From a virus (taxonomy: Duplodnaviria; Heunggongvirae; Uroviricota; Caudoviricetes): DNA of 55,890 nt. Below the pieces are notes generated by a model. That model saw nothing but the letters and a program-made list of their open reading frames with translations. It was not told the origin of the DNA and searched no databases. The DNA lies in the IMG/VR virus record IMGVR_UViG_3300044719_000150; one strand, given 5' to 3'. Shown one piece after another: positions 2,790-36,976 of this stretch. The translations under genes and the position numbers were made by a program. How positions within the stretch are numbered: position 1 is the first letter of the stretch; each line of letters opens with the position of its first letter.

Positions 2790-3259
2790 TGCTCAACCAC
2801 CTGACCGAACTGGCCCGCGCCCGCGCATGGCTGCCGGAACCGGAGGAGCGCAGGCGCATCCGCATCGAAGCCGGGATGACCATCAAGGCCCTGGCGGACT
2901 ACATCGGCATCTCGGTGAGCGCGATGAACTCGCTGGAGCGCGCCGAGCACCCCAGCGACAAGCATCTGGTCAAGTATGTCACAGCGCTCAAGGCATTGGA
3001 CGGCCCGTCAAAGTCGCCCCAGCAGTCCGGTCTGACGCCCGAGGAGGTCACGGAGCTGCGCGGACGCTGGGAGGAGCACGCCTGCGGATCCTGCGGCGGC
3101 CTGCACACCACTGCTGTCAAGGCTCCCGGATCGTGCCCGCGTATCAAGCGGATCGCCTACGACGCCCAGGGCCGTATGCTCGAAGTCGAATACTGGCCGG
3201 AAGGTAAATGGCCGAAGGACGGCATCATCTGGCCCGACGAGCTGGTGGCAGAGGAGTAG
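2789..3259 (+). CDS. XRE-family HTH regulator with a C-terminal Cys/His-containing domain
   Basis: RRRIRIEAGMTIKALADYIGISVSAMNSLER is an HTH_3 pattern; followed by HACGSCGGLH...CPR. Confidence 0.8.
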   Translation: MLNHLTELARARAWLPEPEERRRIRIEAGMTIKALADYIGISVSAMNSLERAEHPSDKHLVKYVTALKALDGPSKSPQQSGLTPEEVTELRGRWEEHACGSCGGLHTTAVKAPGSCPRIKRIAYDAQGRMLEVEYWPEGKWPKDGIIWPDELVAEE

Positions 3260-3305
3260 CCCGGCGCGGTCTCGGCATGGAATTCGTGGGACATTGGGCG
3301 CCGGG
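3260..3305 (-). ncRNA. tigRNA-like guide unit, convergent with the HTH gene
   Basis: CCCGGCG-CCC-aatgtccca-CG-aatt-CCA-tgccgagac-CG-CGCCGGG; perfect 7-bp stem. Confidence 0.8.
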
Positions 3306-3310
3306 CGAGA

Positions 3311-3322
3311 ATAAAGTAGCAC
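3311..3322 (-). promoter_or_regulatory. Motif variant GTGCTACTTTAT (extended -10-like)
   Basis: TGnTAnnnT retained; 5 nt upstream of unit 3260-3305. Confidence 0.6.
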
Positions 3323-5523: not shown

Positions 5524-5692
5524 TTCGCCTCCTTTCGCGTCTCGGTGAGCAAGTGCTCTCCGAATTCCAGATGCACGCCGGTGGTACTGGACCAGGTCCG
5601 GGACCGCCATCGGCCGCATGCGCAACAACCCCATGAGCCGTGACGGCCAGAACGGTATAGCACTGGCTCGTGTTCGCTCATGCCAACTCCCC

Positions 5693-5734
5693 GTCGGCGT
5701 AGACATCTTGGATCTTGAGAAGTGAATGGCCGAC
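5693..5734 (-). ncRNA. tigRNA-like guide unit
   Basis: GTCGG-CCA-ttcacttct-CA-agat-CCA-agatgtcta-CG-CCGAC. Confidence 0.8.
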
Positions 5735-5738
5735 CGGA

Positions 5739-5750
5739 CTAACGTATCAC
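5739..5750 (-). promoter_or_regulatory. Recurrent motif GTGATACGTTAG
   Basis: Exact motif 4 nt upstream of unit 5693-5734 and about 20 nt before the divergent portal start. Confidence 0.7.
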
Positions 5751-12455: not shown

Positions 12456-12466
12456 CGAAGCACTTC

Positions 12467-12497: not shown

Positions 12498-12518
12498 CGT
12501 ATCCCCGTAAGGATGGGT

Positions 12519-16081: not shown

Positions 16082-16089
16082 GGAGTCTG

Positions 16090-16263
16090 ATGGGCCGCCC
16101 ATCTAACCGTTGTCGGCGGTGCGGGGGCCCTCAGCGCGGTCGCGCCGGACGCGTGTCGGACGTGTGGGCCTACTGCGCCACCTGCGGCGACGGGATCTGC
16201 GTCAGGCACACCGTCGCCCGTGACGGCCAGTACGTCTGCACCAAGTGCGCGCGGGAGGGATGA
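16090..16263 (+). CDS. Small Cys-rich protein (57 aa; not in the ORF track)
   Basis: MGRPSNRCRRCGG...YCATCGDGICVRH...YVCTKCAREG after AAGGAG. Confidence 0.6.
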   Translation: MGRPSNRCRRCGGPQRGRAGRVSDVWAYCATCGDGICVRHTVARDGQYVCTKCAREG

Positions 16264-16269
16264 TCATCA

Positions 16270-17248: not shown

Positions 17249-17752
17249 ATGCCGTTGGTGTCGATGCAGACCTACTGCCGCGATCTTCTCGACGGCACCG
17301 CGATGCCGCTGGGCCTGGCTCCCATGAAGGCCTACATCACCCCGCCCAACCCCGGCGTCGCGGAGCAGCCCACGCTGTACATCTGGGACGCGGAGGGCGA
17401 GGAGCGGCGCGAGAGCATGCCGCGCGCCAAGCCGAACTTGCTGTCTACCGGTGCGTTCAAGTTCCTCGAACATAAGATCGAAATGTACGTCACGATGGTG
17501 GACTACGCCGACGACGTGCAGGTGGACAGCAACTTTCCGGCGTGCATCGATGCGGTGCTCGCTGTGCTGCGCAACACGCAGATGCCGGTGCTCAACCGCG
17601 TGGACCCGGTCACTGGCGGCGTCTCGGACGTCACGATGATCGGCGAGCGGATGCGTTGGCGCCAGGGCGTGCCGCGCTCCCTGAACGACCAGCGCATGCT
17701 CTGGTACGTCTGCTGGCTCCAGGTCGATCTAGTGGAGAAGATCCAGGCCTAG
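17249..17752 (+). CDS. Neck / tail-terminator-like protein
   Basis: Position in the neck module; 167 aa. Confidence 0.55.
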   Translation: MPLVSMQTYCRDLLDGTAMPLGLAPMKAYITPPNPGVAEQPTLYIWDAEGEERRESMPRAKPNLLSTGAFKFLEHKIEMYVTMVDYADDVQVDSNFPACIDAVLAVLRNTQMPVLNRVDPVTGGVSDVTMIGERMRWRQGVPRSLNDQRMLWYVCWLQVDLVEKIQA

Positions 17753-17850
17753 CCGGGGCGGCGGAACATTGGGCGTCGCATGCGATATGGCCCCGGCCGG
17801 AGCCTGATGCCGGGCGCGGCTAGTAAGAGTCTCGGACGATCATTGGCCCG
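17752..17850 (-). ncRNA. Two tigRNA-like units antisense to the virion operon (17811-17850 degenerate; 17752-17797 canonical)
   Basis: CGGG-CCA-atgatcgtc-CG-agac-TCT-tactagccg-CG-CCCG and GCCGGGG-CCA-tatcgcatg-CG-acgc-CCA-atgttccgc-CG-CCCCGGC. Confidence 0.85.
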
Positions 17851-17856
17851 TCCCGC

Positions 17857-17868
17857 ATAACGTATCAC
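17857..17868 (-). promoter_or_regulatory. Recurrent motif GTGATACGTTAT
   Basis: One mismatch to consensus; 6 nt upstream of unit 17811-17850. Confidence 0.7.
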
Positions 17869-17886
17869 ATCTTCCGGAGGTGCGCC

Positions 17887-18357
17887 ATGGCCGGACTCTT
17901 CAGCTTCATTCACGACGAGAGCGAGCTGCGCGGCCTTGGCTCCGAGTTCAAGTGGATCACCGAGGCCACCATGCGCGCCGAGCTGATCAAGGGCCCCGTC
18001 CTGCGGGAACTCCAGCGCGAGACGCCGGTCGCCAAGAAGCCGATCAAGGGGCACGAGCCCGGCTTCCTGCGCGACAACATCCGGGGCGAAGTCATCTCGG
18101 GCGCGGGCGCGGTCGGGGTGCGCTATAGCACGGACGTTGACTACGCGAGCATTGTCGTGGACGGCAGCGGGCCGCACGAGATCACCCCGCGCAACGCCCG
18201 CTACCTGCACTGGGTCGATGAGAACACCGGCGAGGACGTCTTCCGCTCCCGCGTCTGGCACCCCGGCACGCAGCCCAACGACTTCCCCGGCCGCACGGCC
18301 GACCGCGTTATGCCGCTGGTGGAATCCGCCTTCGGCACCGTATTCGAAAGGTTCTGA
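17887..18357 (+). CDS. HK97 gp10-like neck protein
   Basis: TPV...GFLRDNI, DYASIVVDGSGPHEITP...VWHPGTQPNDF. Confidence 0.8.
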   Translation: MAGLFSFIHDESELRGLGSEFKWITEATMRAELIKGPVLRELQRETPVAKKPIKGHEPGFLRDNIRGEVISGAGAVGVRYSTDVDYASIVVDGSGPHEITPRNARYLHWVDENTGEDVFRSRVWHPGTQPNDFPGRTADRVMPLVESAFGTVFERF

Positions 18358-18358
18358 T

Positions 18359-18676
18359 ATGCCGACCGCCCAGCGCAAGAACGCTGATGCCGACGCTCCG
18401 GCCGACGCCGCGCCCGTGGCCGACGCGCCAGCGCCCGTGGAGGAGGCCGCCGCTGAGTCCGCTGCGGCCGAAGCCCCACAGGCCGAAGCGCAGCCGCCGC
18501 ACCCGGATGACCTCTGGCAGCACGACGAGCGGGTGGAGCTGATCTTCACCGGCGAGAGCGGCACCATCATCTTCCCGATGGCCGCGCTGACCAACGGCCA
18601 GACGGTCCCCGTACCGAAGACGCTGGTGGAGAGCTACCTGCGCACCAGGCTTTTCACGACGCCCGACCAGGCGTAA
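18359..18676 (+). CDS. Hypothetical protein with an Ala/Pro/Asp-rich N-terminus
   Basis: ATG at 18359, directly after the gp10-like stop. Confidence 0.65.
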   Translation: MPTAQRKNADADAPADAAPVADAPAPVEEAAAESAAAEAPQAEAQPPHPDDLWQHDERVELIFTGESGTIIFPMAALTNGQTVPVPKTLVESYLRTRLFTTPDQA

Positions 18677-18703
18677 TCATCCCTTTAACACGCCTGGAGG
18701 TGT

Positions 18704-20143
18704 GTGCCGAACCCTGTCGTCGAGCGCTGGGGCTCGCTGTCTGCCACCGGTGTCGCCCGCGAGGCGGCGTTCGGTACGCCCCTGACGCCAACTTCTTTCA
18801 TCCCCTGCACCGGCAACGAGCTTCAGCTCGACGTCGGCCTGTTCTCCCCGCACGTCATGTTCGGCCAGAAGGATCTCAACACCTTCCCGCTGTACGGCCA
18901 GTACAAGATGTCCGGCAGCATCACCGCACCGGCCTGGCCGACCAACGGCGCGACGCTGATCTCCGCCTCGATCGGCCCTGACGCCTCAGTCGGTTACGGC
19001 GTGGCGGCCCCGACGCCCGTGACCAACACGGCCACGACGCTCAACGGCGGCGTGAGCGCGGGCGCGACGACGATCACCGTGGCTTCCGGCACCGGCTTCG
19101 CCATCGGCCAGCAGATCGCCATCGACACCGGCGGTCTACTGGAGATCCGCAAGATCTCCAACGTGGTCACCACCACGATCACCCTGGCCGACCCGCTGAC
19201 GTTCGCGCACGCCACGGGCGTGGCCGTGGTCACCGGGGCCCCGACGACGACGCTGAACGGCGCCACCTCCGCCAACGCCACCACGGTCATCGTGACCTCG
19301 GCGACCGGCATCAGCATCAACACGATCATCCAGATCGACGTCAACTCCCCGACGGGTTCGACGACCTCGGAGATCCGCAAGGTCACCGCGATCTCCACCA
19401 ACACGCTGACGCTTGACGTGGCCCTGACGTACGCCCATGCCAACGCGGCCAACGTGTGGATCGTGGCGGCCCCGTACTTTCACAACATCCAGCAGGCCAA
19501 CACCCTCGGCTCGCTGACCGTGGAGAAGGATCTGGGCTCCTACGAGTCGCTCCAGTTCGCGGGCTGCCGCGTCAACAAGCTGGGCGTCTCCATGGCGACG
19601 ACCAATACCGAGGGCACGCTCACGGCTGACCTGATGGCCAAATCCGTGGCAGTCCTCACGACGGGCGCGATCAGTCCGATCTCAATCGTCAACGAGTCCC
19701 CGTGGGTGTTCGCGGAGTCCACGGTCACCCTGTTCGGCCAGGCCGTGACGCAGGCGATCAGCGTAGAGCTGTCGATCGAGAACGGTGTCAAGGACACCTA
19801 CACGATGAACAGCTCGCACAACCCGCAGTTCCTCACGCCGGTCACCCGCGCGATCAGCGGCAAGATCGACGTGGTCTTCACTTCGTTCGACGACGCCACC
19901 TGGGGCTACTACAACCAGATGGTCGCCGGGACCAGCGGTTCGCTGCTGACCACTTTCGTGCACCCGTCCTCGGGCGGCACGATGACCTTCTACATGCCGA
20001 AGGTCGTGCTCGCCAAGACGCCGGACTCGGTGAAGATGGAAGACATCATCACCACCTCGCTGGAGTTCACGGCGTTCCTGAACATCCCGACGCTCCAGAC
20101 GATCAGCGCGTACATCCTCAACACGTCGTACCTCGCAGTGTAG
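18704..20143 (+). CDS. Major tail (tube) protein with two inserted beta modules
   Basis: GVAREAAFGTP start, SLTVEK, GCRVNKL and ISGKIDVVF tube-type motifs; tandem TTLNG...EIRK...AHA repeats. Confidence 0.85.
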   Translation: MPNPVVERWGSLSATGVAREAAFGTPLTPTSFIPCTGNELQLDVGLFSPHVMFGQKDLNTFPLYGQYKMSGSITAPAWPTNGATLISASIGPDASVGYGVAAPTPVTNTATTLNGGVSAGATTITVASGTGFAIGQQIAIDTGGLLEIRKISNVVTTTITLADPLTFAHATGVAVVTGAPTTTLNGATSANATTVIVTSATGISINTIIQIDVNSPTGSTTSEIRKVTAISTNTLTLDVALTYAHANAANVWIVAAPYFHNIQQANTLGSLTVEKDLGSYESLQFAGCRVNKLGVSMATTNTEGTLTADLMAKSVAVLTTGAISPISIVNESPWVFAESTVTLFGQAVTQAISVELSIENGVKDTYTMNSSHNPQFLTPVTRAISGKIDVVFTSFDDATWGYYNQMVAGTSGSLLTTFVHPSSGGTMTFYMPKVVLAKTPDSVKMEDIITTSLEFTAFLNIPTLQTISAYILNTSYLAV

Positions 20144-20173
20144 GTTGTCTGAGCATCCCCATACGATATAAGC

Positions 20174-20761
20174 ATGAGTACATCATGTAGTGTTGATGAC
20201 TGCGGGAAAGTGGTCTTTGCGCGCGGCTGGTGCCAGGGCCACTACACCCGCTGGTTGAAGTATGGGGACGTTCAATCCGGCCTCAAGCTGACCTCGAAGA
20301 TTCGCGGTGACGCCGAGGCGCGCTTCTTTCAGAAGGTCGTCAAGACTGGACCGGTGCCAGCACAACGGCCCGAGCTTGGTGCCTGTTGGCTATGGAGGGG
20401 CGCTTCCATGACCGGCTATGGGCGCCTGAAGATTGATAACGAATACAGGTTGGCCCATCGCCTGTCCTACGAATGGTTCTGTGGGCCCATTGGAGAAGGT
20501 CTGACGATCGACCACCTCTGTCGTGTCACGCTCTGCGTCAATCCAGCGCATCTGGAAGCAGTCTCCGCTGGAGAGAATACGCGCCGCGCCGCACAAGCGA
20601 GAACTGCGTGCAAGAATGGGCATGAATATACCGAAGACAATGTCCGTACGTGGTCGCGTGGCAAGAGGGTCGCGAGGGTCTGTCGAAAATGCAGAACTGA
20701 GCGTGCACAAAGGAACCGTGACCTGCTACTTGAAGCGATAGCAAGAGAGGGTAAGGATTAG
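20174..20761 (+). mobile_element. HNH homing endonuclease gene (HNH_3 type) between tail tube and chaperone genes
   Basis: CWLWRG...GYGRL...AHRLSY...IDHLCRVTLCVNPAHLEAVSAGEN; visibly lower GC. Confidence 0.9.
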
Positions 20762-21208
20762 ATGGACGTAAGCCCGTACGAGGGCACCGTCGAGGTGCCG
20801 GTCGGCAACGGCGGCGTGGTCATCATGCGCGAGCGCATCCCCGGAGGCGAGCGCGAGGCGGCCGACAAGGTGCGTACCCGCGTGCGCTCCAACGCCAAGG
20901 CGGCGCAGAAGGACGGTAAGATCGCGGCCGAGGACATCTCCGTGGAGACGGAGATCGACGAGGCCGCCTACCACCTGGCGCTGCTGTGCTCGTTCGTCGT
21001 CAGCTGGAACCTGACGCGCCACGGCATGCCGATCCCGCTCTCTCCGCCAGAGGCGAAGGCCGAGTCCATCAAGGGCCTGCCGGACCCTATCTACACTCCG
21101 CTGGTCAAGAAGGCCCTGGAGCTGGTGGAGGCGGCGACCCGCACGACCGAGGAACAGTCCCAGTTTCGCGGCGGCGGCGCTGACGGCGGCCCGTACGGGC
21201 TCCACTAA
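20762..21208 (+). CDS. Tail assembly chaperone (G-like)
   Basis: Position before the tape measure gene; 148 aa. Confidence 0.75.
   Translation: MDVSPYEGTVEVPVGNGGVVIMRERIPGGEREAADKVRTRVRSNAKAAQKDGKIAAEDISVETEIDEAAYHLALLCSFVVSWNLTRHGMPIPLSPPEAKAESIKGLPDPIYTPLVKKALELVEAATRTTEEQSQFRGGGADGGPYGLH
21161..21170 (+). other. Candidate +1 ribosomal frameshift site CAG-TTT-CGC
   Basis: A TTT to TTC slip enters the +1 frame, which is open to 21458. Confidence 0.55.
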
Positions 21209-21458
21209 CAACCCTTTCGTGGCACGTGTCTGGCTTCGCCGGGCGTTCTGGAAGAATTTCGGCCAGAACCTCGACGAAGCCTGGCGCACGTGGCCGGAGC
21301 AGGAGTTCCACGACGCGCTCAGCGTCCTGAACGCCGAGGCTGCCACCAGTAAGTCCGGCTCCGGCGGGTCGGCCAGCATCCCCTCGGAGACCACGCAGGC
21401 GAATTTCGACGCCCTGCCGCGCCAGCCGCGCGAAACACCTCCTGAACCGGAGTCCTAA
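21165..21458 (+). CDS. Tail chaperone C-terminal extension (T-like), probably made as a GT fusion
   Basis: +1 frame FAAAALTAARTGSTNNPFVARVWLRRAFWKNF...; no clear RBS before GTG 21219. Confidence 0.6.
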   Translation, partial: FAAAALTAARTGSTNNPFVARVWLRRAFWKNFGQNLDEAWRTWPEQEFHDALSVLNAEAATSKSGSGGSASIPSETTQANFDALPRQPRETPPEPES

Positions 21459-21470
21459 TACAGGGGGTGT

Positions 21471-24400
21471 GTGAGCGACAAGGTCACGCGGGTCCTGCTG
21501 GAAATCATGGCCATCGACAAGGCCACCACGGTCCTCAAGACCATGATGAACTCGCTCCAGGGCTGGGCCGACACGATGAACGGCGTCGGGGCGAAGACGG
21601 AGCTGACCTCCGAGGAACTGGAAATCGCGCAGGTCCGGCTCCAGGGCGCCTCGGACGCGCAGACGGCCGCGCTGGAGGCTCAGGCAGCCGCCCTGGGCAA
21701 GCTTGAGGCGGCGCAGGCCACCGTGGCCGAGCAGCAGGCCGCCGAGATCGCGTACATCCAGGAGGCTACCCTCGCCCGACAGGAGGCCGCTGCCGCGAAC
21801 GCGGCGGATGCCGCAGACCTGCTGGAGTACGCCGCCGCTGCCGAAAAGGCCGCCGCGCAGACCGCCATCGCCGTCAAGGCCTCCGTGGACGAGCAGGTCG
21901 CCGCCTACGACAAGCTGATGGCAGCCGACGCCCTGGTGGCCAAGCGCTCCCAGCAGGTCGCCGACGCCCAGATCGCTGCTGGCGAGGAGGGCGCGGCTGC
22001 CACCTCTGCCGGTCTCGGCAAGGTCGGCCCGATCATGCTGGCCGCCGGTGCCGCCGCCGCCTTCCTCGCGGTGAAGACCACGAAGATGGCGGCCGACTTC
22101 CAGACCTCGATCGTGAAGCTGGTCACCTCCGCCGGTGAGTCCAAGTCTGCGATGGACCTGGTCAGCGCGGGCGTTCTGAATGTCAGTAGCCAGACCGGCA
22201 TTTCCGCCGAGGAGCTGGCCAAGGCGCTTTACTTCGTGGACTCCGCTGGCATCCACGCCGCCGACTCCATCAAGGTGCTGACGGCTGCCGCGAAGGGCGC
22301 GCGCGATGAGCAGGCCGACACCGCCACTGTCACCAACGCCCTCACGACGATCCTGAAGAACTACAACCTGTCGGCCGACCAGTCCACCACGGTCATGAAC
22401 GAGATGATCCAGGCGATCTCTCTCGGCAAGATGAACCTCCAGGACTTCGCTGCTTCGCTCTCCTCGGTCCTGCCGATCGCCGCCGCGAACAACATCAGTT
22501 TCCAGCAGGTCGGCGCGGCGCTGGCGACGATGACGGCGAAGGGCATGTCGGCGCAGCAGGCCGCCGACAACCTCGCCTTCTCGATCCGCGCGTTGCAGAA
22601 GCCGAACGGTGTGGCGATCACCGAGTTGGGCCAGCTGGGCCTGTCGGCGACGCAGGTGCAGAAGTCCCTGGGTACGGGACCGGACGGCCTGAGCAACACC
22701 CTCAACCTGCTGAGCGAGACAGTCCTGAAGAAGATGGGCCCGTCGGGCACGCTGCTGCTGAGCGTGTTCAACCAGTCGAAGGACATCGCGCTCAAGGCGA
22801 AGATGATGTTCGACGCCATGCCGCCGAGCCTCCAGAAGCTGGCCAGCTCGCTGGAGAACGGGACGATCAGCGCCCACCAGTGGGCGCTGGCGATCCGCAA
22901 CCTCAGCGGGTCCGACCAGAAGGTGATGCAGCAGTTCGCCACGATGTTCGAAAGCTCGCAGGCTTTCGCCAACCAGGTGACGAGCAAGGCGACCCCGGCA
23001 ACGCAGACCTACGCCACCGCCATGTCGAACCTGATGGGCGGCGCGGCAGGCCTCAACACCGCCCTGATGCTGGTCAGCAAGCAGGGTGTAGGCGACTTCA
23101 CCACCAATGTCCAGAAGATGGACGCGGTGGCGGGCCGGGCGAATAAGGAAGTTGACGGCTGGGCCGAGGTTCAGGGCACCTTCAACCAGAAGATGTCGGA
23201 GGCCAAGCAGAGCCTGATCAACACGGGCATCGCCATTGGCCAGGTGCTGCTGCCATACGCCACGAAGTTCCTGGATCTTATCATGGAGATCCTCACGCCC
23301 ATCGGGCAGTGGATCTCCGCGCACAAGCAGCTGATCGCCACGATCCTCGCCATCGCTGGCCCCTTCCTGATGGCGCTCGGCATCTTCATGACGCTCACGA
23401 AGATCATGGGACTGGCCCACGCGGCGGTGCTCGCCTTCAAGGCGGCATTGGTCATCCTTGAAGACACGGACCCGATCATCTTGGCCTTGACTGCCGTGAT
23501 CATGACCGTCTTCCTGATGGTCAAGTACTGGAAGCAGATCAAGGAAGCCATCGAATTCGCCTGGAATTGGATCAAGGCCCACGCGGGCGAGACGGCGGCT
23601 GCCCTCACCCTGCTGCTCGGCCCCATGGGACTCATCCTGGGCGCGGCGCTGGAGATCTACACGCATTGGCGGCAGGTCAGCGCGTTCTTCAGCAAGATGT
23701 GGAAAGACATTTCCACGGACACGAAGGCTGCCTGGGGCGCGATCCAGGGCGCGCTGGAAAAAGCGTGGAACTGGATGACCGGCGCGTGGAATTCCACCGG
23801 CGGAAAGCTCGTCACCGACATCGCCCGCGACTGGGAGAAGGTCTCTGGCGCGGTTAGCAAGGAATGGGACCGGATTTACGGCGACCTGTCGCAGATCTGG
23901 AACGAGCTGGTCACCCTGTGGAATGACACAGGCGGAAGGCTCGTATCCCTCGTCTCTGATAACTGGGATGCCATTAAGATCGCCACCGACGAGGTGTGGA
24001 ATCCCATCTGGAAGCTCCTCAAGGGAGTTTTCGACATCATCACCGGAAACACGCGCCTATTCCTGAGTTTTATGACGACGGGATTCCGCGTCGCCTGGGA
24101 TGTCATCAGGGGAGTGACGAACCTTTTCTGGGACTGGTTCACCGGGTACCTGAAGGCTGGCTGGGATTACGTGTCCGGCCTTTTCCGGGGCGCCTGGGAT
24201 ATCATCGAGGGCCTGTTCAAGGGCATGTGGGACGCGGCGACCACCACCGCGAAAGTGGCCTGGGATATCATTACCGGTGTCATCAACACGGCCCTAGACT
24301 TCATTAAGGGAATACTCCAGGTATTCATCGACCTGGTTACCGGCAAATGGGGCAAGATGTGGAGCGACGCCCAAAAGGTGTTCTCCACCGTCTGGAACGA

Positions 24401-25079
24401 TATCGGCGATACCGCGAACAAGATCCTCAACAAGATCACCGGCTTCTTCACCAAGGCCGCCGGTGATATATCCAGTGGATTCATCAGCGGCATCGAATCC
24501 ATTGTCTCCGGAGCCGGAAAAGCCCTGGGCGACATCTGGAACACCGTCACGGGGTTCTTCAGCGACGCCATCCACTGGCTGGAGCAGGCGGGCAAGGATC
24601 TCATCCAGGGCCTGATCAACGGTATCGAGAACTGGGCCAGCAACCTGTGGGACACCCTTGGCAACCTCGCCAGCGGAATCCTCGGGAAAATCGGCAACTT
24701 CCTGGGCCTCGGCTCGCCGTCGCGCATCACGCACCAGTACGGCATCTACCTGGTCGAGGGGCTCGTCAACGGCATCAACGCCTCGGCGGGCAAAGCCGCG
24801 AACGCGGCGCGCGGCCTTGCGCTGGGCGTCCTTGCGGGCACGCGGGGCACGCTGGGCAACATCACCCTGGCCTCGGCCGGAGTGGGTTCGGGCGGCCTGT
24901 TCGCGGGGTCCGCAGCAGGCTCCTCGGGCCGTGCTGCCACCAATGTGACGCTGGACCTCCGGGGTGCCCAGATCGCCGGTCCACAGTCGGTCAGGTGGAT
25001 CACCGATCAGATCGACAAGAACTTCGTCCAGAAGGTCGTCCCGACCGCCGGGGTCACCTTGCGGCGCACTGGGGGGTGA
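21471..25079 (+). CDS. Tape measure protein
   Basis: 1202 aa, Ala-rich and helical; TP901-like core; periodic Trp repeats. Confidence 0.95.
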   Translation: MSDKVTRVLLEIMAIDKATTVLKTMMNSLQGWADTMNGVGAKTELTSEELEIAQVRLQGASDAQTAALEAQAAALGKLEAAQATVAEQQAAEIAYIQEATLARQEAAAANAADAADLLEYAAAAEKAAAQTAIAVKASVDEQVAAYDKLMAADALVAKRSQQVADAQIAAGEEGAAATSAGLGKVGPIMLAAGAAAAFLAVKTTKMAADFQTSIVKLVTSAGESKSAMDLVSAGVLNVSSQTGISAEELAKALYFVDSAGIHAADSIKVLTAAAKGARDEQADTATVTNALTTILKNYNLSADQSTTVMNEMIQAISLGKMNLQDFAASLSSVLPIAAANNISFQQVGAALATMTAKGMSAQQAADNLAFSIRALQKPNGVAITELGQLGLSATQVQKSLGTGPDGLSNTLNLLSETVLKKMGPSGTLLLSVFNQSKDIALKAKMMFDAMPPSLQKLASSLENGTISAHQWALAIRNLSGSDQKVMQQFATMFESSQAFANQVTSKATPATQTYATAMSNLMGGAAGLNTALMLVSKQGVGDFTTNVQKMDAVAGRANKEVDGWAEVQGTFNQKMSEAKQSLINTGIAIGQVLLPYATKFLDLIMEILTPIGQWISAHKQLIATILAIAGPFLMALGIFMTLTKIMGLAHAAVLAFKAALVILEDTDPIILALTAVIMTVFLMVKYWKQIKEAIEFAWNWIKAHAGETAAALTLLLGPMGLILGAALEIYTHWRQVSAFFSKMWKDISTDTKAAWGAIQGALEKAWNWMTGAWNSTGGKLVTDIARDWEKVSGAVSKEWDRIYGDLSQIWNELVTLWNDTGGRLVSLVSDNWDAIKIATDEVWNPIWKLLKGVFDIITGNTRLFLSFMTTGFRVAWDVIRGVTNLFWDWFTGYLKAGWDYVSGLFRGAWDIIEGLFKGMWDAATTTAKVAWDIITGVINTALDFIKGILQVFIDLVTGKWGKMWSDAQKVFSTVWNDIGDTANKILNKITGFFTKAAGDISSGFISGIESIVSGAGKALGDIWNTVTGFFSDAIHWLEQAGKDLIQGLINGIENWASNLWDTLGNLASGILGKIGNFLGLGSPSRITHQYGIYLVEGLVNGINASAGKAANAARGLALGVLAGTRGTLGNITLASAGVGSGGLFAGSAAGSSGRAATNVTLDLRGAQIAGPQSVRWITDQIDKNFVQKVVPTAGVTLRRTGG

Positions 25080-25082
25080 GCC

Positions 25083-26474
25083 GTGTCCACGTCTCTTCAG
25101 CTCTTGATCAACGGTACAGACTATACGCAGTACCTTGAGCAGGGGACGTGGACCATCACCCAGCAGTACACCCGGCAGGGCGACACGGCGACGTTCTACC
25201 TTGCGGACGAGTTCCAGAACGAGCCGAACACCCCGCCCCTGCCGAATGTCTACGTTCCGGCGATGGCCACGGTCACTTTCACCGACCTGGGCTTGAACCA
25301 GGTGCTGTTCGCTGGCCTGGCCACCGCCCCGGAGGTCCAGTTCGAGGGTCCGAACAGGCTGTACTGGACGATCCAGTGCACCGACTGGACCTACTTCGCC
25401 GACCACGGGCTGATCACCGGCGACTTCGTGAATTTCACGGTGGACCAGATCGTGCTGATGCTGGTCGCGCAGGCCAACTGCGGGATCAATGCCGCCAAGG
25501 CGTCCAGCGGCGGGTTCGTGCAGCCCGGACCCGTCATCCCGCGCATCCAGTTCGTCTACAGCACCCTGAGCAACGCGCTGGTCAGCCTGATCTCGGTGGC
25601 CAGCACGTACACTTCCTGGGGCTGGTATGTGGACGAGAGCAGGAACCTGCATTTCGCCCCCCTGACAGACGTGGTGAACACCGGCGTCACGTTCACCTAC
25701 GACATCACCAAGAGTCCGGGAAACACGCTGGGCCACTACGACGCGGAGAATTTCTCCTACACCTGGGATGGCACACAGCTGCGCAACCGCGCGGTGGTGC
25801 GCGGGGCTTCGTTCTCCACGCTCCAGACCGACACCTGGTACGGCGACGGCGTCACCACCCAGTGGGCTATCTCCCAGGTCCCCGACACCTCCCGCGTCTC
25901 CAGCGCCACCCTGACCATCGCGGGCACGAAGACCGGCGTCTCCATCCAGTCCGGAACGAGCGCCACCACGCCCTTCGTGATCGTGCAGAACAACATCGGT
26001 GCCTGGTTCCTGGTGGTCAACGCGGGCGTCGGCAGTATCCCGACCACCGGCCAGGCGGTCGTGCTCAAGTATTACTACACGGCGCCGATTATCACGCAGG
26101 TGGACAATATCCCCAGCGAGGCGCTGTATTCCTCGCTGCCGAACCACGGCGTGTTCGCCACGTATATCTTGGACATCAACCTCAAGACGCTCGCCTCGGC
26201 GCAGCAGCGCGGACAGGCCGAGGTCTATTCCTTCGGCCTGCCGGAGGAGCGCGTTCAGTTCCAGAGCACTGAGACGTTCACCGGGCACGTGCGCGCGGGG
26301 CAGATCATCACCTGGGTCAGCGATGTCACGCCGAACTCCAGCAATAGCGGCAATCCGGGGATCAGCGACACCTTCCTGATTATCCAGAACACCATCGCCT
26401 CAAGCCAGCACGGCTGGTACTACCGCACATACAACATCACCGCAGCGCGCACCAGCCTTTCCGTGGGCATCTAG
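25083..26474 (+). CDS. Tail tip / baseplate hub-like protein
   Basis: Immediately after the tape measure gene; WGWYVDESRNLHF motif. Confidence 0.7.
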   Translation: MSTSLQLLINGTDYTQYLEQGTWTITQQYTRQGDTATFYLADEFQNEPNTPPLPNVYVPAMATVTFTDLGLNQVLFAGLATAPEVQFEGPNRLYWTIQCTDWTYFADHGLITGDFVNFTVDQIVLMLVAQANCGINAAKASSGGFVQPGPVIPRIQFVYSTLSNALVSLISVASTYTSWGWYVDESRNLHFAPLTDVVNTGVTFTYDITKSPGNTLGHYDAENFSYTWDGTQLRNRAVVRGASFSTLQTDTWYGDGVTTQWAISQVPDTSRVSSATLTIAGTKTGVSIQSGTSATTPFVIVQNNIGAWFLVVNAGVGSIPTTGQAVVLKYYYTAPIITQVDNIPSEALYSSLPNHGVFATYILDINLKTLASAQQRGQAEVYSFGLPEERVQFQSTETFTGHVRAGQIITWVSDVTPNSSNSGNPGISDTFLIIQNTIASSQHGWYYRTYNITAARTSLSVGI

Positions 26475-26483
26475 GAGCGGGGC

Positions 26484-27476
26484 ATGCCGGGCCGCAACTA
26501 CACCTTGCAGGATCTCTTCGCCAATATCGCGGGCTCGATCAACGCGAACGTGGACACCTCGACGCAATTCGAGGTGGTTGACAACTTCGTCAACGACAGC
26601 GAGATCCTGATCCTCAACGAGAGCGCCTCGCCGCCCTCGTTCACCACCTCCACGAACTACCCGGTCCTGATCGACGCGGAGTATCCTATAGCGTATTGGC
26701 GGCTGGCGGAGAGCGCGGGCGGCGTCGCCTTCGACTCGAACCAGGGCCTTTATTCCATCTACCCGCGCATCAACTCCTCGTCGATGACGGGCGTCACACA
26801 GGGCGCAGGCAGCTTCCTGTCCCACTCGAAGGCCGCCCAGTTCACCGCCTCCACCAGCGCGATCGTCTTCCCGAACGGCAGCTCGATCCAGATCACCGGC
26901 GACCTGACGGTGGAGTTCTGGGCGTTCTTCACCTCTTTCAGCACCAGCGGCACCGCATACGGCCTGGTGACCAAGGACGGCGCCAGCTTCGGCACCGGCG
27001 AATACGGCGTCTACCTGTTCAACAACTCCGGCACAGGGCAGATCAGGTACGCGCAGAACGGCGGCATGGCCACGCTCACCGCCGGTTCGCTGAGCCTGAA
27101 CACCTGGTACCACGTGGCGGTGGTGCGCGACGGTACCGCGAAGACCGTGACGATCTACATCAACGGCACCTCGGCCGGTTCCGGCTCGTACGCCACAGCG
27201 CCGACCGGCACGACGAACAGCGTCGTGCTCGGCAACAACTCGACCTCGGCGGTCGCCGCCACGCCGATGTCCCTGACCGAGGTCGCCCTCTACGCCAAGC
27301 CACTGTCCTCTTCGCAGGCCTCCTCGCACCATTCCTGGGGTGCCGCGACGGACGCGCTGGCGACGGCCTACGGGGGCCTGTCCTCGCTCTACGGCACGTT
27401 CCCCTATCCGTCCCTCACGCACCCCACGACGACCAGCTATGGCGCGGCGCTGTGGGGCACCGCGACGTGGAAGTAG
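26484..27476 (+). CDS. Minor tail protein with a LamG/concanavalin-A-like domain
   Basis: PIAYWRLAE, LTVEFW, LNTWYHVAVV, TIYING and EVALY LamG motifs. Confidence 0.85.
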   Translation: MPGRNYTLQDLFANIAGSINANVDTSTQFEVVDNFVNDSEILILNESASPPSFTTSTNYPVLIDAEYPIAYWRLAESAGGVAFDSNQGLYSIYPRINSSSMTGVTQGAGSFLSHSKAAQFTASTSAIVFPNGSSIQITGDLTVEFWAFFTSFSTSGTAYGLVTKDGASFGTGEYGVYLFNNSGTGQIRYAQNGGMATLTAGSLSLNTWYHVAVVRDGTAKTVTIYINGTSAGSGSYATAPTGTTNSVVLGNNSTSAVAATPMSLTEVALYAKPLSSSQASSHHSWGAATDALATAYGGLSSLYGTFPYPSLTHPTTTSYGAALWGTATWK

Positions 27477-27481
27477 GTGCC

Positions 27482-28243
27482 ATGGGCCTCGCGCTGGACG
27501 ACGGATTCGGGATCAAGGGCAGGCTCTCGCTGGAACTGCGCAGCGCCGAGACCGATCTCGTGGTGGCGCGCCGCAGCGCGGACAACCTGATCGTGACCAC
27601 GGGCCTCAACTCCCTGGCGACCGCCCTGAACTGGGCCTTCGTCCAGAACTACAACGCCGGTTGGGGTTCCCCGTTCTCCTCCTCTTCAGGCAATCTCGGG
27701 GATGTGTACGGGGCAGTGGGCACGGGCACGAGCACGCCCTCGGCGGGGCAGACCGCCCTGGACAGCGAGGTGGGGCGCGCCCTGCTGACCACGGGCACGA
27801 ATTCGAGCACCGTCCTGACCTACCAGTTCTTTTTCGGGACCACCAGCGCCAACGGCGTGATCACCGAGGCCGGGGTGTTCACCTCCGCGTCCTCGGTCCA
27901 GACGACGCTGACCGCCGGGCTGAACCAGTCGCAGGTCTACACCTCCCTGACGGTCGCCGCGCTGCCCGCAGCGATCCCCAGCGGGGCGACGCTGACGGTC
28001 AACTACGGGGGCGCGCAGGTCTCGGGCGTCACCCAGCAGGTGTCCACGACGGCCCCGGCCTCTTTCGGGGCGACCACCATCTCGGTGTCCTCATTCGCCG
28101 CGTCGGCATCCTTCCCGTCGGGCACGGTCGTGGCCTACAACACCGGCACGCTGCTGGACCGGGCCCTGATCTCACCCTCGGTGACGAAGACCGCCGCGCA
28201 GACCGCGACGCTGAACCTGTCGCTCACCCTCCAGTCGGGCTGA
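27482..28243 (+). CDS. Minor tail / baseplate-type protein
   Basis: NLIVTTG...AVGTGT...TALDSEVGR...ANGVITEAGVF...KT motif; start reassigned to ATG 27482. Confidence 0.75.
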   Translation: MGLALDDGFGIKGRLSLELRSAETDLVVARRSADNLIVTTGLNSLATALNWAFVQNYNAGWGSPFSSSSGNLGDVYGAVGTGTSTPSAGQTALDSEVGRALLTTGTNSSTVLTYQFFFGTTSANGVITEAGVFTSASSVQTTLTAGLNQSQVYTSLTVAALPAAIPSGATLTVNYGGAQVSGVTQQVSTTAPASFGATTISVSSFAASASFPSGTVVAYNTGTLLDRALISPSVTKTAAQTATLNLSLTLQSG

Positions 28244-28245
28244 AC

Positions 28246-28291
28246 CCGGCGGCGCGGGCGCGTTGAGTTTCGCTTCAGTTTTGGCCACCGG
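28246..28291 (-). ncRNA. tigRNA-like unit antisense to the virion operon
   Basis: CCGGTGG-CCA-aaactgaag-CG-aaac-TCA-acgcgcccg-CG-CCGCCGG; 7-bp stem. Confidence 0.8.
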
Positions 28292-28297
28292 CAATGC

Positions 28298-28309
28298 ATA
28301 ACGTATCAC
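28298..28309 (-). promoter_or_regulatory. Recurrent motif GTGATACGTTAT
   Basis: One mismatch to consensus; 6 nt upstream of unit 28246-28291. Confidence 0.7.
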
Positions 28310-28323
28310 ACGCGAGGAGATCC

Positions 28324-28599
28324 ATGGAAGCCGCAGTCCCTCCCTACAGGGCCGACGCCAACGCCGCCGCGCAGTCCGTCGGTGAGCTGTACCTGTATGT
28401 CAAGCAGCTGACCACTCGCATCGGTGAGATCGCCGATCAGGCCAACCGCGTCGATGACGTGCGCCTGGAGCTGGAGAAGCGCGTGGAGCAGCTCACGACC
28501 GAGCTGGCCGAGGCCCGCAAGCACAACGACGACCTGCGCACCCGCATCGACGAACTGCTCGCCCGCGAGGACGACGCGGACTGCGACTGCTGCCGCTAA
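28324..28599 (+). CDS. Coiled-coil protein
   Basis: ATG after GAGGAG; heptad-rich. Confidence 0.7.
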   Translation: MEAAVPPYRADANAAAQSVGELYLYVKQLTTRIGEIADQANRVDDVRLELEKRVEQLTTELAEARKHNDDLRTRIDELLAREDDADCDCCR

Positions 28600-28610: not shown

Positions 28611-29399
28611 ATGGCGCTGTATACGGTCAACACGGCGTCCGTGGTCAACGCCGCCGACATCAACCAGTTCACCAACCTGCTCAACGGCACCACGAGCGGC
28701 ACCAGCGTCGTGGTCAGCTCCCGCATTCGCGCGCAGATGACCGGCGCCGCCACCGGCTCCGGGGGCTTGGCCGGTCAGACCTCCCTGGCCGCCCCTTCCT
28801 CCGGAACATATGTCACCGGCGACATCGTGGTGGACGGCGGCTTCGGAACGACGTGGGTGTGCACCTCGGGGGGCTCGCCCGGCTCGTGGTCGGCCAACCC
28901 CACGCAGATCTCCACGCAGACCCTGGGGTCGAACGCCGCCTCAGTGACCTTCTCCTCGATCCCCGCGTTCAACCACATCAGTGTCGTGTGGAAGGCGCGC
29001 TCTTCGGCCGCAGTCCTCGCCGAACAGCTGTACCTGCGCTTCAACGGCGACTCGGCGGCCCACTACTTCTGGGAGAAGGTCGAGGGCAACAACGCCACCC
29101 TCACCTCGGGAAGCTCCGGCGGCGCGGTCGCCTTCGTCCAGATGGGCACCATCACCGGAGCCAGCGGCACCGCGAACTGCTTCGGGAGCGGAAACTTCAC
29201 GGTCGCCTACTTCAACGACACCACGAATTTCTCCAGCGTCCAAGGCACCGCGTGCACTTTGGTCAGCTCCTCGAACCTGTACAACGGCACATACTCTGGA
29301 CTTTATAATCAGGCTACGAGCATCACGAGCCTGACCCTGTTCGCCGCCACCGGCAACCTGGTGACCGGCTCGCGCTTCTCCCTCTACGGCTGGATGTGA
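28611..29399 (+). CDS. Putative receptor-binding / tail-tip protein, paralog 1
   Basis: Shared MALYTVN...D(I/L/V)NQ..NLL.G N-terminus. Confidence 0.75.
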   Translation: MALYTVNTASVVNAADINQFTNLLNGTTSGTSVVVSSRIRAQMTGAATGSGGLAGQTSLAAPSSGTYVTGDIVVDGGFGTTWVCTSGGSPGSWSANPTQISTQTLGSNAASVTFSSIPAFNHISVVWKARSSAAVLAEQLYLRFNGDSAAHYFWEKVEGNNATLTSGSSGGAVAFVQMGTITGASGTANCFGSGNFTVAYFNDTTNFSSVQGTACTLVSSSNLYNGTYSGLYNQATSITSLTLFAATGNLVTGSRFSLYGWM

Positions 29400-35720: not shown

Positions 35721-36075
35721 GCTCTTGCTCCTCCGCTTGCCGTGCTGCCCGCTCCAGCAGTTCGACGACTTCCTCGGCCGTGCGCCCTGGAGTGTCGTTG
35801 AAAGCGTACAGGGTTTCAAAGCCTGGCAGCAGGCCGTTGACGAACACCCGCGCCATATCGGCGAGATCCATGCCTTCCGGAGTGTCGCCGATGCCGACCG
35901 GCGAGCCGGTGGTCGCGAGATTGATCGCGCCGACCGCGCACAGGCACGCGCCAGGAATCGCGTTGCCGCCGTCGTCGTACAACGTCCAGTCCTTCTGGAT
36001 GAAGCCGCGCACACGGATCAGCTCAGCCGCCCGCCAGAGCGCTTCCGGCAGAGTGCTGGCCAGCGCGTCAAGCAT
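35659..36075 (-). CDS. DUF6197-like actinophage protein
   Basis: AAELIRVRGFIQ...CAVGAI...FNDTPGRTAEEVVELLERAA. Confidence 0.7.
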   Translation of the reverse strand: MLDALASTLPEALWRAAELIRVRGFIQKDWTLYDDGGNAIPGACLCAVGAINLATTGSPVGIGDTPEGMDLADMARVFVNGLLPGFETLYAFNDTPGRTAEEVVELLERAARQAEEQERGEATGDPPGQRPDHDGDRG

Positions 36076-36955
36076 TGCGCTCCTCGTGCAGGCGCTTGCC
36101 CTCCAGCCACAGGTCGCGCAGGATCTCCTTGCTCATCTTGCGCATCGCGCGGGCGTGCTGGTGTCCGGCCGACAGTGGCGAACCGGCGAGGGCGGGCTTG
36201 CCGGAGGGGCCGCAGCGCTTGCAGTCCATCCGGTGCACGCCGTCCGCGTACTTGGCGCGGGTCTCGTCGTAGATGCGCCGATAGGGCGAGCAGTCGCAGC
36301 CGGACTGGTGCTTGACCGTCCCATCCTCCTGCTTGCAGCCCTTCTCCAACTGCTTGAGGCAAGCCTCCGCGATGAGGTAGACGCGCATCTTCGCGGCGTC
36401 ATTCCAGTTGGACTTGACGCCCTTGCGCCGGTGCGGGGCGATGCCGAGGTCGCCGGGCGGCAGGCCCTGTTCGCGCGGCACGACCTCCAGCGTCGCCGGA
36501 TCGATGCGCCACACGCCGTAGCCGCAGAAGCTCCACAGCTCGGAGACCAGGCGCGGCCGGTTGAAGATCGGATGCCAGTACGGGTCGCCGATCGCGGCGA
36601 GCAGCCGACCGCCCTGCTTGAGGCCGATGCCCTTGGTCTTCTTCACCCAGGGGCCGAGCGGATGCTGCTTGACGCCCTGCTCCAGGGATTTGACCGCGAG
36701 CGTCTCGGCCTCGCGCAGGGTGGCGACGATCTCCACGAGGCGCGCGACGGCCGGATGGCCCTCGTCCAGCCCGAACCCGCGCATCTCCCCGTCCTCGTCG
36801 GGCTCGGTGCGGGTGAACTGGCGCAGCCGGTTCTCGGTGGCGATGCGCAACTTCTCTAGGTCGGTCAGGGTGTCCGCGTGGACGGCGAGCATCGCGTCCT
36901 CGGGCCTTCGCGGGACAGGCTGGACAACGACAGGTTCCATGGTGGCTGTGGTCAT
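36068..36955 (-). CDS. tasA: TasA-like Nop-domain protein (IS110/Nop56-58 related) with no RuvC or HNH nuclease domain
   Basis: Coiled coil (LEKLRIATENRL), then KGIG...GRLLAAIGDP, LWSFCGYG, RRKGVKSNWN, YRRIYDETRAKY and HARAMRKMSKEILRDLW, resembling the IS110 C-terminal half; no N-terminal DEDD domain; CCA-N9-CG array directly upstream. Confidence 0.85.
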   Translation of the reverse strand: MTTATMEPVVVQPVPRRPEDAMLAVHADTLTDLEKLRIATENRLRQFTRTEPDEDGEMRGFGLDEGHPAVARLVEIVATLREAETLAVKSLEQGVKQHPLGPWVKKTKGIGLKQGGRLLAAIGDPYWHPIFNRPRLVSELWSFCGYGVWRIDPATLEVVPREQGLPPGDLGIAPHRRKGVKSNWNDAAKMRVYLIAEACLKQLEKGCKQEDGTVKHQSGCDCSPYRRIYDETRAKYADGVHRMDCKRCGPSGKPALAGSPLSAGHQHARAMRKMSKEILRDLWLEGKRLHEERNA

Positions 36956-36976
36956 GGGGTGCTCCCTTCGGTGAGT

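What the first reader, a model, noticed from the sequence alone, without database searches (positions are those of the whole stretch)
17752..28309. Promoter-plus-guide cassettes inserted antisense inside the virion operon
At 17752-17868 and 28246-28309 a GTGATACGTTAT motif and one or two guide units face leftward between rightward structural genes, each starting at the upstream gene's stop codon. The 3260-3322 cassette is likewise convergent with the HTH gene. Inference: these are self-contained expression units that could be active before late transcription, could interfere with late transcription, or could be modular cassettes that spread between intergenic sites.
Basis: partly seen in the sequence, partly recalled or inferred. 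Interest (0 to 1): 0.75.

Follow-up and report, generated by a model that had tools for sequence, protein, structure and literature searches.

The report
Solo guide-RNA genes inside virion operon
Two short gaps between a phage's head and tail genes each hold one or two small guide-RNA genes of the recently described TIGR-TasA type, pointing backwards. Each sits flush against its own copy of the phage's standard promoter core, a layout not reported for this system, and no RNA data were available to confirm transcription.

Summary
The 12-mer GTGATACGTTAT is exact at 17857-17868 and 28298-28309. It has 13 copies with at most 2 mismatches, against 0.76 expected. Directly left of each copy, on the minus strand, lie stem-CCA-N9-CG-N4-CCA-N9-CG-stem units: 17751-17798 (canonical), 17809-17852 (degenerate) and 28245-28292. 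They fill the gap down to the upstream gene's stop codon.

The units have the stem-loop tigRNA architecture. A nuclease-free TasA gene (36068-36955) matches the TasR structure 9MTY.

Across 26 copies the motif reads GTGnTACGTTA. That is an extended -10 (TGnTAnnnT) facing the guides, and it predicts starts at 17852 and 28292, the first base of each closing stem. The core TAACGTA is symmetric, so rightward firing into the next virion gene is also plausible.

Related phages (62-93% protein identity) keep both cassettes. Promoter and scaffold are conserved, while spacers match only at chance level. One relative has an extra cassette at another junction. Relatives at about 50% identity have none.

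No RNA data were available and no target was found. This is a new variant of a known kind. The scan has also noted scattered TIGR arrays in another phage (e1-5415013).

The parts
17249..17752 (+). Upstream virion gene at junction 1 (167 aa, no family). Its stop TAG at 17750-17752 overlaps the guide's 3' stem arm.
   Evidence: GC3 0.91. Homologues occur in syntenic phage contigs.
17751..17798 (-). Distal, canonical guide unit: stem GGCCGGGG, CCA, spacer TATCGCATG, CG, ACGC, CCA, spacer ATGTTCCGC, CG, stem CCCCGGCT.
   Evidence: Model R1 gives 42.3 bits. The flush stem is 8 bp. The lowest-energy fold closes it with 9 pairs. Orthologues exist in L001, L007, L008 and L065.
17809..17852 (-). Proximal, degenerate guide unit: GACGGG, CCA, ATGATCGTC, CG, AGAC, TCT, TACTAGCCG, CG, CCCGGC. 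The predicted leftward start at 17852 is its first base.
   Evidence: Read from the sequence. The L001 orthologue has CCT as second box and a 6-bp stem. The element is absent from L007, L008 and L066.
17857..17868 (-). Promoter core GTGATACGTTAT. Leftward it gives TG at -15/-14 and the hexamer TACGTT. Rightward it gives the hexamer TAACGT at 17858-17863.
   Evidence: conservation over 26 sites.
17887..18357 (+). Downstream virion gene, tail completion/Neck1-like. Its Shine-Dalgarno GGAGG and ATG lie 18 nt right of the motif.
   Evidence: PHROG 5, E 3.6e-6; sequence.
27479..28243 (+). Upstream virion gene at junction 2, tail-fibre-like, stop TGA at 28241-28243. Only the end coordinate is firm.
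   Evidence: GC3 0.93 in this frame. PHROG 4176/5417 match on ORF 26696-28243.
28245..28292 (-). Guide unit: GCCGGTGG, CCA, AAACTGAAG, CG, AAAC, TCA, ACGCGCCCG, CG, CCGCCGGG. The predicted leftward start is 28292 plus or minus 1, its first base.
   Evidence: Model R1 gives 23.3 bits, E 0.024. The fold closes it with 8 pairs. Orthologues in L004 and L012 have CCA in both boxes.
28298..28309 (-). Promoter core GTGATACGTTAT.
28324..28599 (+). Downstream virion gene (91 aa, coiled-coil-like). Its Shine-Dalgarno GAGGAG and ATG lie 14 nt right of the motif.
3259..3322 (-). It is convergent with the HTH gene 2684-3259 and lies downstream of minus-strand gene 3344-3565.
5690..5750 (-). Unit 5690-5737 plus motif 5739-5750 in the divergent region between minus-strand gene 4429-5681 and the portal gene 5758. 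The unit sits in the 5' leader of the leftward gene.
36068..36955 (-). tasA: nuclease-free Tas protein, 295 aa, the presumed partner of all guides. A three-unit array lies directly upstream (36973-37086), and a motif-type promoter site lies at 37649.
   Evidence: phmmer against PDB 9MTY (TasR), E 1.1e-7. More than 2057 homologues. Array, motif site.

Best explanation
Each cassette is a solitary stem-loop tigRNA gene, a guide for the phage's nuclease-free TasA. At junction 1 there are two in tandem. The gene lies tail-to-tail against the upstream virion gene and is transcribed leftward from its own copy of the phage's standard promoter core.

That core, GTGnTACGTTA, is an extended -10 element (TGnTAnnnT). 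RNA polymerase would start 7 nt past the hexamer, at 17852 and 28292. These are the first bases of the guides' closing stems, so the 5' end would need no processing.

The RNA is then bound by TasA (36068-36955). Published TasA proteins bind DNA matching the two 9-nt spacers and block transcription.

Because the core TAACGTA is a symmetric -10, the same site probably also starts some rightward transcription into the next virion gene.

The module of promoter, short spacer and scaffold is heritable and can be copied to new junctions, while the spacers are replaced far faster than their surroundings.

Shown here: the anatomy, the strand, the conservation and the presence/absence pattern. Inferred: transcription, TasA loading and the function of the guides.
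For: Guide identity and strand
- The units match the published stem-loop tigRNA plan: a stem, then box C CCA, a 9-nt spacer and box D, twice over (PMC12045711).
- Twelve strict units with flush stems occur, against 0.01 expected.
- Stem pairs covary: 94.9% of cells pair, against 27-56% when the partner is slid.
- In four phages the array next to tasA reads CCA-to-CG on the tasA strand: the window, L003, L012 and Bethlehem.
- TasA matches the TasR structure 9MTY at E 1e-7.

Promoter
- Across 26 motif copies TG is invariant, the next base varies (A, G or C), TACG-T/c-TA is invariant, and a weak TTG sits 17 nt upstream.
- The same face drives protein genes with a Shine-Dalgarno and start codon at 39777, 43515 and 50161.
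- The hexamer-to-stem distance is 6-8 nt in 9 of 15 cassettes.
- The tasA operon itself has a motif-type site at 37649.
- All four unit loci without an upstream same-strand gene carry the motif. All six loci without a motif follow a same-strand gene.

Conservation
- Junction 1 keeps its cassette in L001, L007, L008, L065 and L066, with 1, 2 or 3 units.
- Junction 2 keeps its cassette in L004 and L012. All are antisense to the virion genes.
- Scaffold identity is 0.6-1.0, while spacer identity is 0.29-0.32.
- Between the window and L001 the flanks are 84-91% identical, but the spacers plus linker of the distal unit match at only 9 of 22 positions.

Modularity
- G001 has an extra cassette after the minor-tail gene (L007 4376-4440), where the window has a 30-nt gap.
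- That cassette's promoter, spacer and stem align almost base for base with the junction-1 cassette of another lineage.
- Relatives at about 50% identity (L010, L067, L068) have 10-14-nt gaps at junction 1.
- L010 has no motif and no unit in 20 kb of virion genes.
Against:
- The two-hexamer sigma-70 scan finds no promoter on either strand.
- No terminator follows the units.
- The hexamer-to-stem distance ranges from 1 to 11 nt. At 35354 the predicted start falls inside the first stem.
- Plus-strand units at 43737 and 51716 follow the opposite face of the motif (TAACGT), so the motif-to-guide orientation is not fixed.
- Box D is CG, not the published UG.
- The 28245 unit and the proximal junction-1 unit have degenerate second boxes. 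The L066 orthologue has lost its stem.
- Thermodynamic stability is no better than in shuffles.
- No target was found.
Confidence: 0.6

Rival explanations
1. The motif at these junctions is kept as a rightward internal promoter that boosts the downstream virion genes. The guides behind it are passengers: transcribed weakly as a by-product of promoter symmetry, or not at all.
For: - The rightward hexamer TAACGT lies 24 nt (junction 1) and 20 nt (junction 2) before the downstream ATG, with a Shine-Dalgarno sequence in between.
- At 5740 the motif is the only promoter-like element before the portal gene, and at 50192 it has genes on both sides.
- -7T and -11A pair reciprocally, as in described bidirectional promoters (PMC10268837).
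Against: - The rightward face lacks TG, while the invariant TG serves the leftward face.
- Relatives without cassettes join the same two genes with a 10-14-nt gap. L010 has no motif in 20 kb of virion genes, so no internal promoter is needed there.
- Inside the virion operon the motif never occurs without a guide.
- Guide scaffolds are conserved while spacers turn over, which passengers would not show.
Confidence: 0.15
2. The 11-15-bp motif is mainly the binding site of a phage DNA-binding regulator, an operator or stoperator-like site. The guides are transcribed by some other route.
For: - More positions are conserved than a -10 needs: CG in the middle and often GTCC beyond the core.
- Of the 15 sites with at most 2 mismatches to the 11-mer core, 13 share one absolute orientation whatever the gene direction, which promoter logic alone does not explain.
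Against: - The conservation pattern (TG, a variable base, then TAnnnT) is that of an extended -10.
- Orientation does not follow the direction of transcription, as stoperators do.
- No other leftward promoter candidate exists in these 80-134-nt gaps.
- A regulator site and a promoter are not mutually exclusive.
Confidence: 0.1
3. The units at these junctions are non-functional: decaying relics, or DNA-level palindromic repeats that merely resemble guides.
For: - Second boxes are degenerate (TCA, TCT).
- The L066 copy has no stem.
- No target was found.
- Folding energy is not significant.
Against: - Position, strand, boxes and pairing are kept across lineages whose flanking genes differ by 9-26% in DNA.
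- Stems covary.
- Orthologues of the 28245 unit have both CCA boxes.
- Unit number changes while the promoter stays fixed.
Confidence: 0.08

Closest known systems
Stem-loop TIGR-TasA systems (PlTasA, Faure et al. 2025, PMC12045711; BlTasA and MbTasA, Xu et al. 2026 preprint, 10.64898/2026.09.09.750476)
   Same: A nuclease-free Tas protein. Guides of about 45 nt carry two 9-nt spacers, each between box C (CCA) and box D, closed by a variable palindromic stem. The system is phage-borne. Published TasA represses transcription at matched DNA.
   Different: - Published guides lie in arrays beside or inside tas. These are single or double units 8-19 kb from tasA, on the strand opposite the surrounding genes.
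- Each has a recognisable promoter flush with the stem.
- Box D is CG, not UG.
- No CUU is seen at the stem base of these two cassettes.
TasA-like gp71 locus of Mycobacterium phage Bethlehem and about 80 other cluster A mycobacteriophages (annotated 'transposase' or hypothetical)
   Same: The protein is about 50% identical. The units have the same architecture and are detected by the same model.
   Different: In Bethlehem all three detectable units form one array directly upstream of the gene, on its strand. None lies elsewhere in the 52-kb genome and none in the virion genes.
Solo (orphan) vrRNAs of VIPR systems in Enterobacteriaceae phages and satellites (Lopez et al. 2026 preprint, 10.64898/2026.10.15.759431)
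   Same: Stand-alone guide-RNA genes lie away from the effector gene in phage genomes, used in competition between mobile elements.
   Different: It is an unrelated effector with a different guide code (GGY/NN repeats). The comparison is conceptual only, and nothing here shows competition.
Bidirectional promoters from -10 symmetry (Warman/Grainger; Middlemiss et al. 2023, PMC10268837)
   Same: TAACGTA carries a TAnnnT hexamer on both strands, with -7T and -11A reciprocally paired. This predicts starts 18 bp apart: 17852/17870 and 28293/28311.
   Different: Here one face has an invariant TG extension and drives a structured guide RNA. The core is conserved over 11 bp at many sites in one phage.
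Archaeal box C/D sRNA genes (general knowledge, not tested here)
   Same: Small dual-guide RNAs bound by a Nop-domain protein. They are scattered singly through the genome and are often wedged between, or overlap the ends of, protein genes.
   Different: They guide RNA methylation with fibrillarin and L7Ae through K-turns. The boxes and the partner proteins differ.

Membership tests
Stem-loop TIGR-Tas system | Tas protein with the Nop-type guide-binding domain; for TasA, no nuclease domain | tested here: met
   36068-36955(-) matches the TasR structure 9MTY at E 1.1e-7 and TasH weakly. It has 295 aa, with only 77 residues before the matched domain, and no Pfam nuclease domain. Pfam's Nop model itself does not hit.
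Stem-loop TIGR-Tas system | Guide unit with two 8-12-nt spacers, each with box C (CCA) on the 5' side and box D (UG) on the 3' side, closed by a palindromic stem | tested here: met
   Box D is CG in nearly all units, with TG in two. The second box C is degenerate in 28245 (TCA) and 17809 (TCT).
Stem-loop TIGR-Tas system | Units arranged in tandem arrays beside or inside the tas gene | tested here: not met
   The two cassettes hold 2 units and 1 unit, about 18.2 kb and 7.8 kb from tasA, on the strand opposite their neighbours. The phage does also have an array next to tasA (36973-37086).
Stem-loop TIGR-Tas system | Units transcribed, processed and bound by Tas | not testable with these tools
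Stem-loop TIGR-Tas system | DNA target matching spacer A on one strand and spacer B on the other, 0-2 bp apart | tested here: inconclusive
   No match with 0-1 mismatch was found in the window or in about 120 kb of related phage DNA, and counts with up to 3 mismatches equal those of shuffled spacers. There were no exact matches in IMG/VR. The 49 matches in genome contigs equal the chance expectation and are scattered across phyla. The target geometry was derived by me from the paper's cleavage rules.
Stem-loop TIGR-Tas system | CUU processing motif at the stem base (Xu et al. 2026 preprint) | tested here: not met
   No CUU adjoins the stems of the junction-1 or junction-2 units (sequences). 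A promoter-defined 5' end would make 5' processing unnecessary.
Extended -10 promoter | TG at -15/-14, any base at -13, TAnnnT at -12 to -7 | tested here: met
   Over 26 sites: T in 24, G in 26, then a variable base, then TACG(T/C)T with its defining T, A and final T invariant. Activity was not tested.
Bidirectional promoter by -10 symmetry | Hexamers on both strands with -7T and -11A reciprocally paired; divergent starts 18 bp apart | tested here: inconclusive
   The sequence condition is met by TAACGTA. Genes lie on both sides at 5740, 43470 and 50192. Start sites could not be tested.
Stoperator-type repressor sites (cluster A mycobacteriophages; general knowledge) | Asymmetric 13-bp sites in intergenic DNA, oriented with the direction of transcription | tested here: not met
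   The motif keeps one absolute orientation in both rightward and leftward gene blocks.

The most novel reading that the evidence does not exclude
The cassette is a portable 'guide gene': promoter core, a 5-7-nt spacer and a fixed scaffold, able to be copied into new intergenic sites. Its two 9-nt spacers are rewritten by a dedicated or recombination-based process much faster than the neighbouring DNA mutates. Orthologous cassettes would then be a natural record of how TIGR systems acquire new spacers, which the field calls an open problem. Backward placement in the late operon could also act as a timer: guides are made early, and the leftward promoters are silenced by oncoming late transcription.
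Probability: 0.2. Interest if true: 0.8.

Novelty: new variant of a known kind. Interest (0 to 1): 0.6.

Why it matters
Published TIGR-Tas work searches for guides only around tas genes. The 2026 preprint states that sequence alone cannot tell whether guides are cut from long precursors or made from their own promoters.

Here the layout nearly forces the second answer. The guides lie 8-19 kb from tasA, antisense within a 28-kb one-way operon, each flush against a promoter core that predicts a start at the stem base. That gives a directly testable case of promoter-defined tigRNAs. It also shows that surveys limited to tas neighbourhoods undercount guides.

Orthologous cassettes have conserved scaffolds, spacers that match only at chance level, and varying unit numbers. 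They offer material for the open question of how TIGR spacers arise and turn over.

TasA homologues with the same guide architecture occur in about 80 cultured mycobacteriophages, which gives a laboratory system for comparison.

Tried and rejected
1. Self-targeting. Spacer pairs of 24 units were searched in the window in both possible geometries, with gaps of 0-2 and up to 3 mismatches. The only hit was a unit's overlap with itself; shuffled spacers gave 5.6 hits.
2. Targets in relatives. 37 hits against 26 plus or minus 6 for shuffles, none with 0-1 mismatch.
3. Exact targets of the 17759 and 28253 guides in IMG/VR: none.
4. The 17759 guide in 185,579 species genomes: 49 hits, which is the chance expectation. 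They are scattered across phyla and show no enrichment in actinobacteria.
5. Spacers resembling the promoter core, so that guides would aim at promoters: 2 spacers with at least 7 of 9 matches, against 1.7 expected. Rejected.
6. The two-hexamer sigma-70 scan and the terminator scan found nothing useful.
7. Folding energies: z-scores from -1.2 to +1.0, not informative.
8. Rfam: no family in the window.
9. Megablast of the virion region against cultured phages: no match.
10. Not available: the whole genome, sequencing runs and searches of records behind encoding-contig loci.
11. A scan with the protein at 28611-29399 found no relatives. The metagenome scan returned only the contig already in hand.


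Full report
**What is there**

The window is 65% G+C phage DNA. A rightward virion operon runs from the portal gene at 5758 to about 34006. It includes a head protease/capsid-like gene, a tail-completion gene, a minor tail gene, the tape measure gene and a tail-fibre-like gene.

Genes in this block are tightly packed, apart from a few gaps. Two of those gaps are the finding:
- 17753-17886, 134 nt
- 28244-28323, 80 nt

The window has 13 copies with at most 2 mismatches, against 0.76 expected.

**The 'guide units' are real and lie on the minus strand**

- A strict search for CCA-N9-CG-N4/5-CCA-N9-CG finds 18 sites, 12 of them closed by a flush stem of at least 5 bp. Simulated sequence gives 1.0 sites and 0.01 with stems.
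- Thirteen such units align into the plan stem-G-CCA-N9-CG-nAAG-CCA-N9-CG-C-stem. Stem pairs covary: 94.9% of cells pair, against 27-56% when the partner is slid. I chose these units partly for their stems, so that figure is inflated.
- A covariance model built from them scores 17751-17798 at 42.3 bits and 28245-28292 at 23.3 bits, on the minus strand only.
- The second unit at junction 1 (17809-17852) has one good half and a degenerate second box (TCT). The model misses it, but its orthologue in a relative is a recognisable unit.
- The units fill the space exactly between the upstream stop codon and the motif.

**They are tigRNA-type guides**

- The plan matches the published stem-loop tigRNA: box C CCA, a 9-nt spacer and box D, twice over, closed by a variable palindrome (PMC12045711).
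- Gene 36068-36955(-) matches the TasR structure 9MTY at E 1e-7. It is too short to hold a nuclease domain.
- A three-unit array lies directly upstream of that gene, on its strand.
- In three other phages the array next to the tasA homologue also reads CCA-to-CG on the gene's strand. This fixes the functional strand of the two cassettes as the minus strand, antisense to the virion genes.

**The motif as a promoter**

Across 26 copies in the window and its relatives the motif reads G-T-G-n-T-A-C-G-T/c-T-A. TG is invariant, the next base is free and TACGTT is fixed. This is the extended -10 pattern, TGnTAnnnT, facing the guides. A weak TTG lies at a 17-nt spacing in gene-driving copies.

The same face precedes a Shine-Dalgarno sequence and start codon of protein genes at 39777, 43515 and 50161. 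A motif-type site at 37649 heads the tasA operon.

With the start taken 7 nt past the hexamer, it falls at 17852 and at 28293. The adjacent purine at 28292 is the more likely start. These are the first bases of the closing stems GACGGG and GCCGGTGG. The hexamer-to-stem distance is 6-8 nt in 9 of 15 cassettes.

No other source of leftward transcription exists within the one-way operon. All four unit loci without an upstream same-strand gene carry the motif, and all six loci without a motif follow a same-strand gene. This is consistent with the model but not significant (about 0.1 by hypergeometric count).

**Caveat: the core is symmetric**

TAACGTA carries TAnnnT on both strands, with -7T and -11A reciprocally paired. 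This is the commonest bidirectional promoter layout (PMC10268837).

- At 5740 the motif separates a leftward gene (4429-5681, with a guide in its leader) from the portal gene.
- At 50192 and 43470 it also has genes on both sides.
- Plus-strand guides at 43737 and 51716 follow the TAACGT face.

The two cassettes may therefore also fire rightward, toward a Shine-Dalgarno sequence and ATG 14-18 nt beyond the motif.

Two points argue against this being their reason for existing. Relatives without cassettes join the same genes with 10-14 nt. One such relative has no motif in 20 kb of virion genes.

**Comparative evidence**

Junction 1 keeps an antisense cassette in five related contigs, where the upstream protein is 75-93% identical:
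- one unit in L007, L008 and L066
- two units in L001
- three units in L065

Junction 2 keeps its cassette in L004 and L012.

The promoter core is invariant or nearly so, and the stems pair. Scaffold segments are 0.6-1.0 identical, while the spacers are 0.29-0.32 identical, which is chance level. Between the window and L001 the flanking genes are 84-91% identical in DNA. The spacers plus linker of the distal unit match at only 9 of 22 positions, although both stem arms are identical.

One relative (G001) has an extra cassette after the minor-tail gene, where the window has a 30-nt gap. Its promoter, spacer and stem align almost base for base with the junction-1 cassette of a different lineage.

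The module therefore behaves as a unit that is kept, multiplied and placed at new junctions, while its spacers are replaced.

**Contrast with canonical layouts**

- Mycobacterium phage Bethlehem has a TasA homologue at about 50% identity. All its detectable units form one array beside the gene, with none elsewhere.
- Another phage contig of about 111 kb has units upstream of and inside tasA, and none in the next 10 kb.

Scattered, promoter-equipped guides are thus a trait of this lineage rather than of the family. The scan has noted scattered dual-repeat arrays in another phage (e1-5415013, not checked by me).

**What remains unknown**

- No RNA data could be consulted.
- No target was found in the window, in relatives, in IMG/VR or in species genomes.
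- Timing relative to late genes, and any interference with late transcripts, are untested.
- Of the 15 sites with at most 2 mismatches to the 11-mer core, 13 share one absolute orientation regardless of gene direction, which is unexplained.

**Verdict**

This is a new variant of a known kind. My confidence in the leftward promoter-plus-guide reading is 0.6.

Noticed in passing
window, all motif sites (276 to 51701): Of the 15 sites with at most 2 mismatches to the 11-mer core, 13 read TAACGTATCAC on the plus strand, in both rightward and leftward gene blocks. Relatives show the same bias. Neither promoter logic nor stoperator logic explains a fixed absolute orientation.
   Followed up: partly
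window 37630-37700; L003 about 5190-5260; L012 about 9110-9180: A motif-type site is flanked by the inverted repeat CCTCCCTGG / CCAGGGAGG, with a second, opposite motif copy about 22 nt upstream. The layout is conserved in three phages. The downstream arm contains the Shine-Dalgarno sequence, so a hairpin could hide it.
   Followed up: no
window 51716-51764 and 53402-53450: Two plus-strand guides 1.7 kb apart have similar spacers (A matches at 6 of 9, B at 7 of 9) and the same linker, so they look like recent duplicates.
   Followed up: no
window 37047-37079 and 43745-43776: Spacers TACCTCCTT and TTCCTCCTT resemble the anti-Shine-Dalgarno sequence. They would pair with the AAGGAGG of ribosome-binding sites on DNA.
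   Followed up: no
window 5690-5737: A guide unit sits in the 5' leader of minus-strand gene 4429-5681. Its 3' stem arm overlaps that gene's Shine-Dalgarno sequence (GGGGAG).
   Followed up: partly
window 20174-20761: An ORF with low third-position G+C (0.62, against about 0.9 in its neighbours) and a Cys-rich N-terminus lies inside the virion operon. Relatives carry HNH_3 genes at other places in the same region (L008 5380-6087, L066 1412-2077), so it may be a variable homing-endonuclease insertion.
   Followed up: no
window 12464-12512: A G+C-rich hairpin followed by a run of T, resembling an intrinsic terminator, lies between the 887-aa head gene and the next gene, next to a weak motif copy.
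   Followed up: no
window 16082-16269; L065 2212-2397; L009 8709-8896: A gap of about 188 nt in the virion operon keeps its length even in relatives at about 50% identity that lack cassettes. Its content was not examined.
   Followed up: no
L063 15995-16894 (Mycobacterium phage Bethlehem gp71 and upstream): About 80 cultured cluster A mycobacteriophages encode a TasA homologue annotated 'transposase' or hypothetical. In Bethlehem it has an unannotated three-unit guide array in the 335-nt gap upstream.
   Followed up: partly
L064 1083-1697: A phage contig of about 111 kb has guide units inside its tasA coding sequence, as the 2026 preprint describes for other systems.
   Followed up: no
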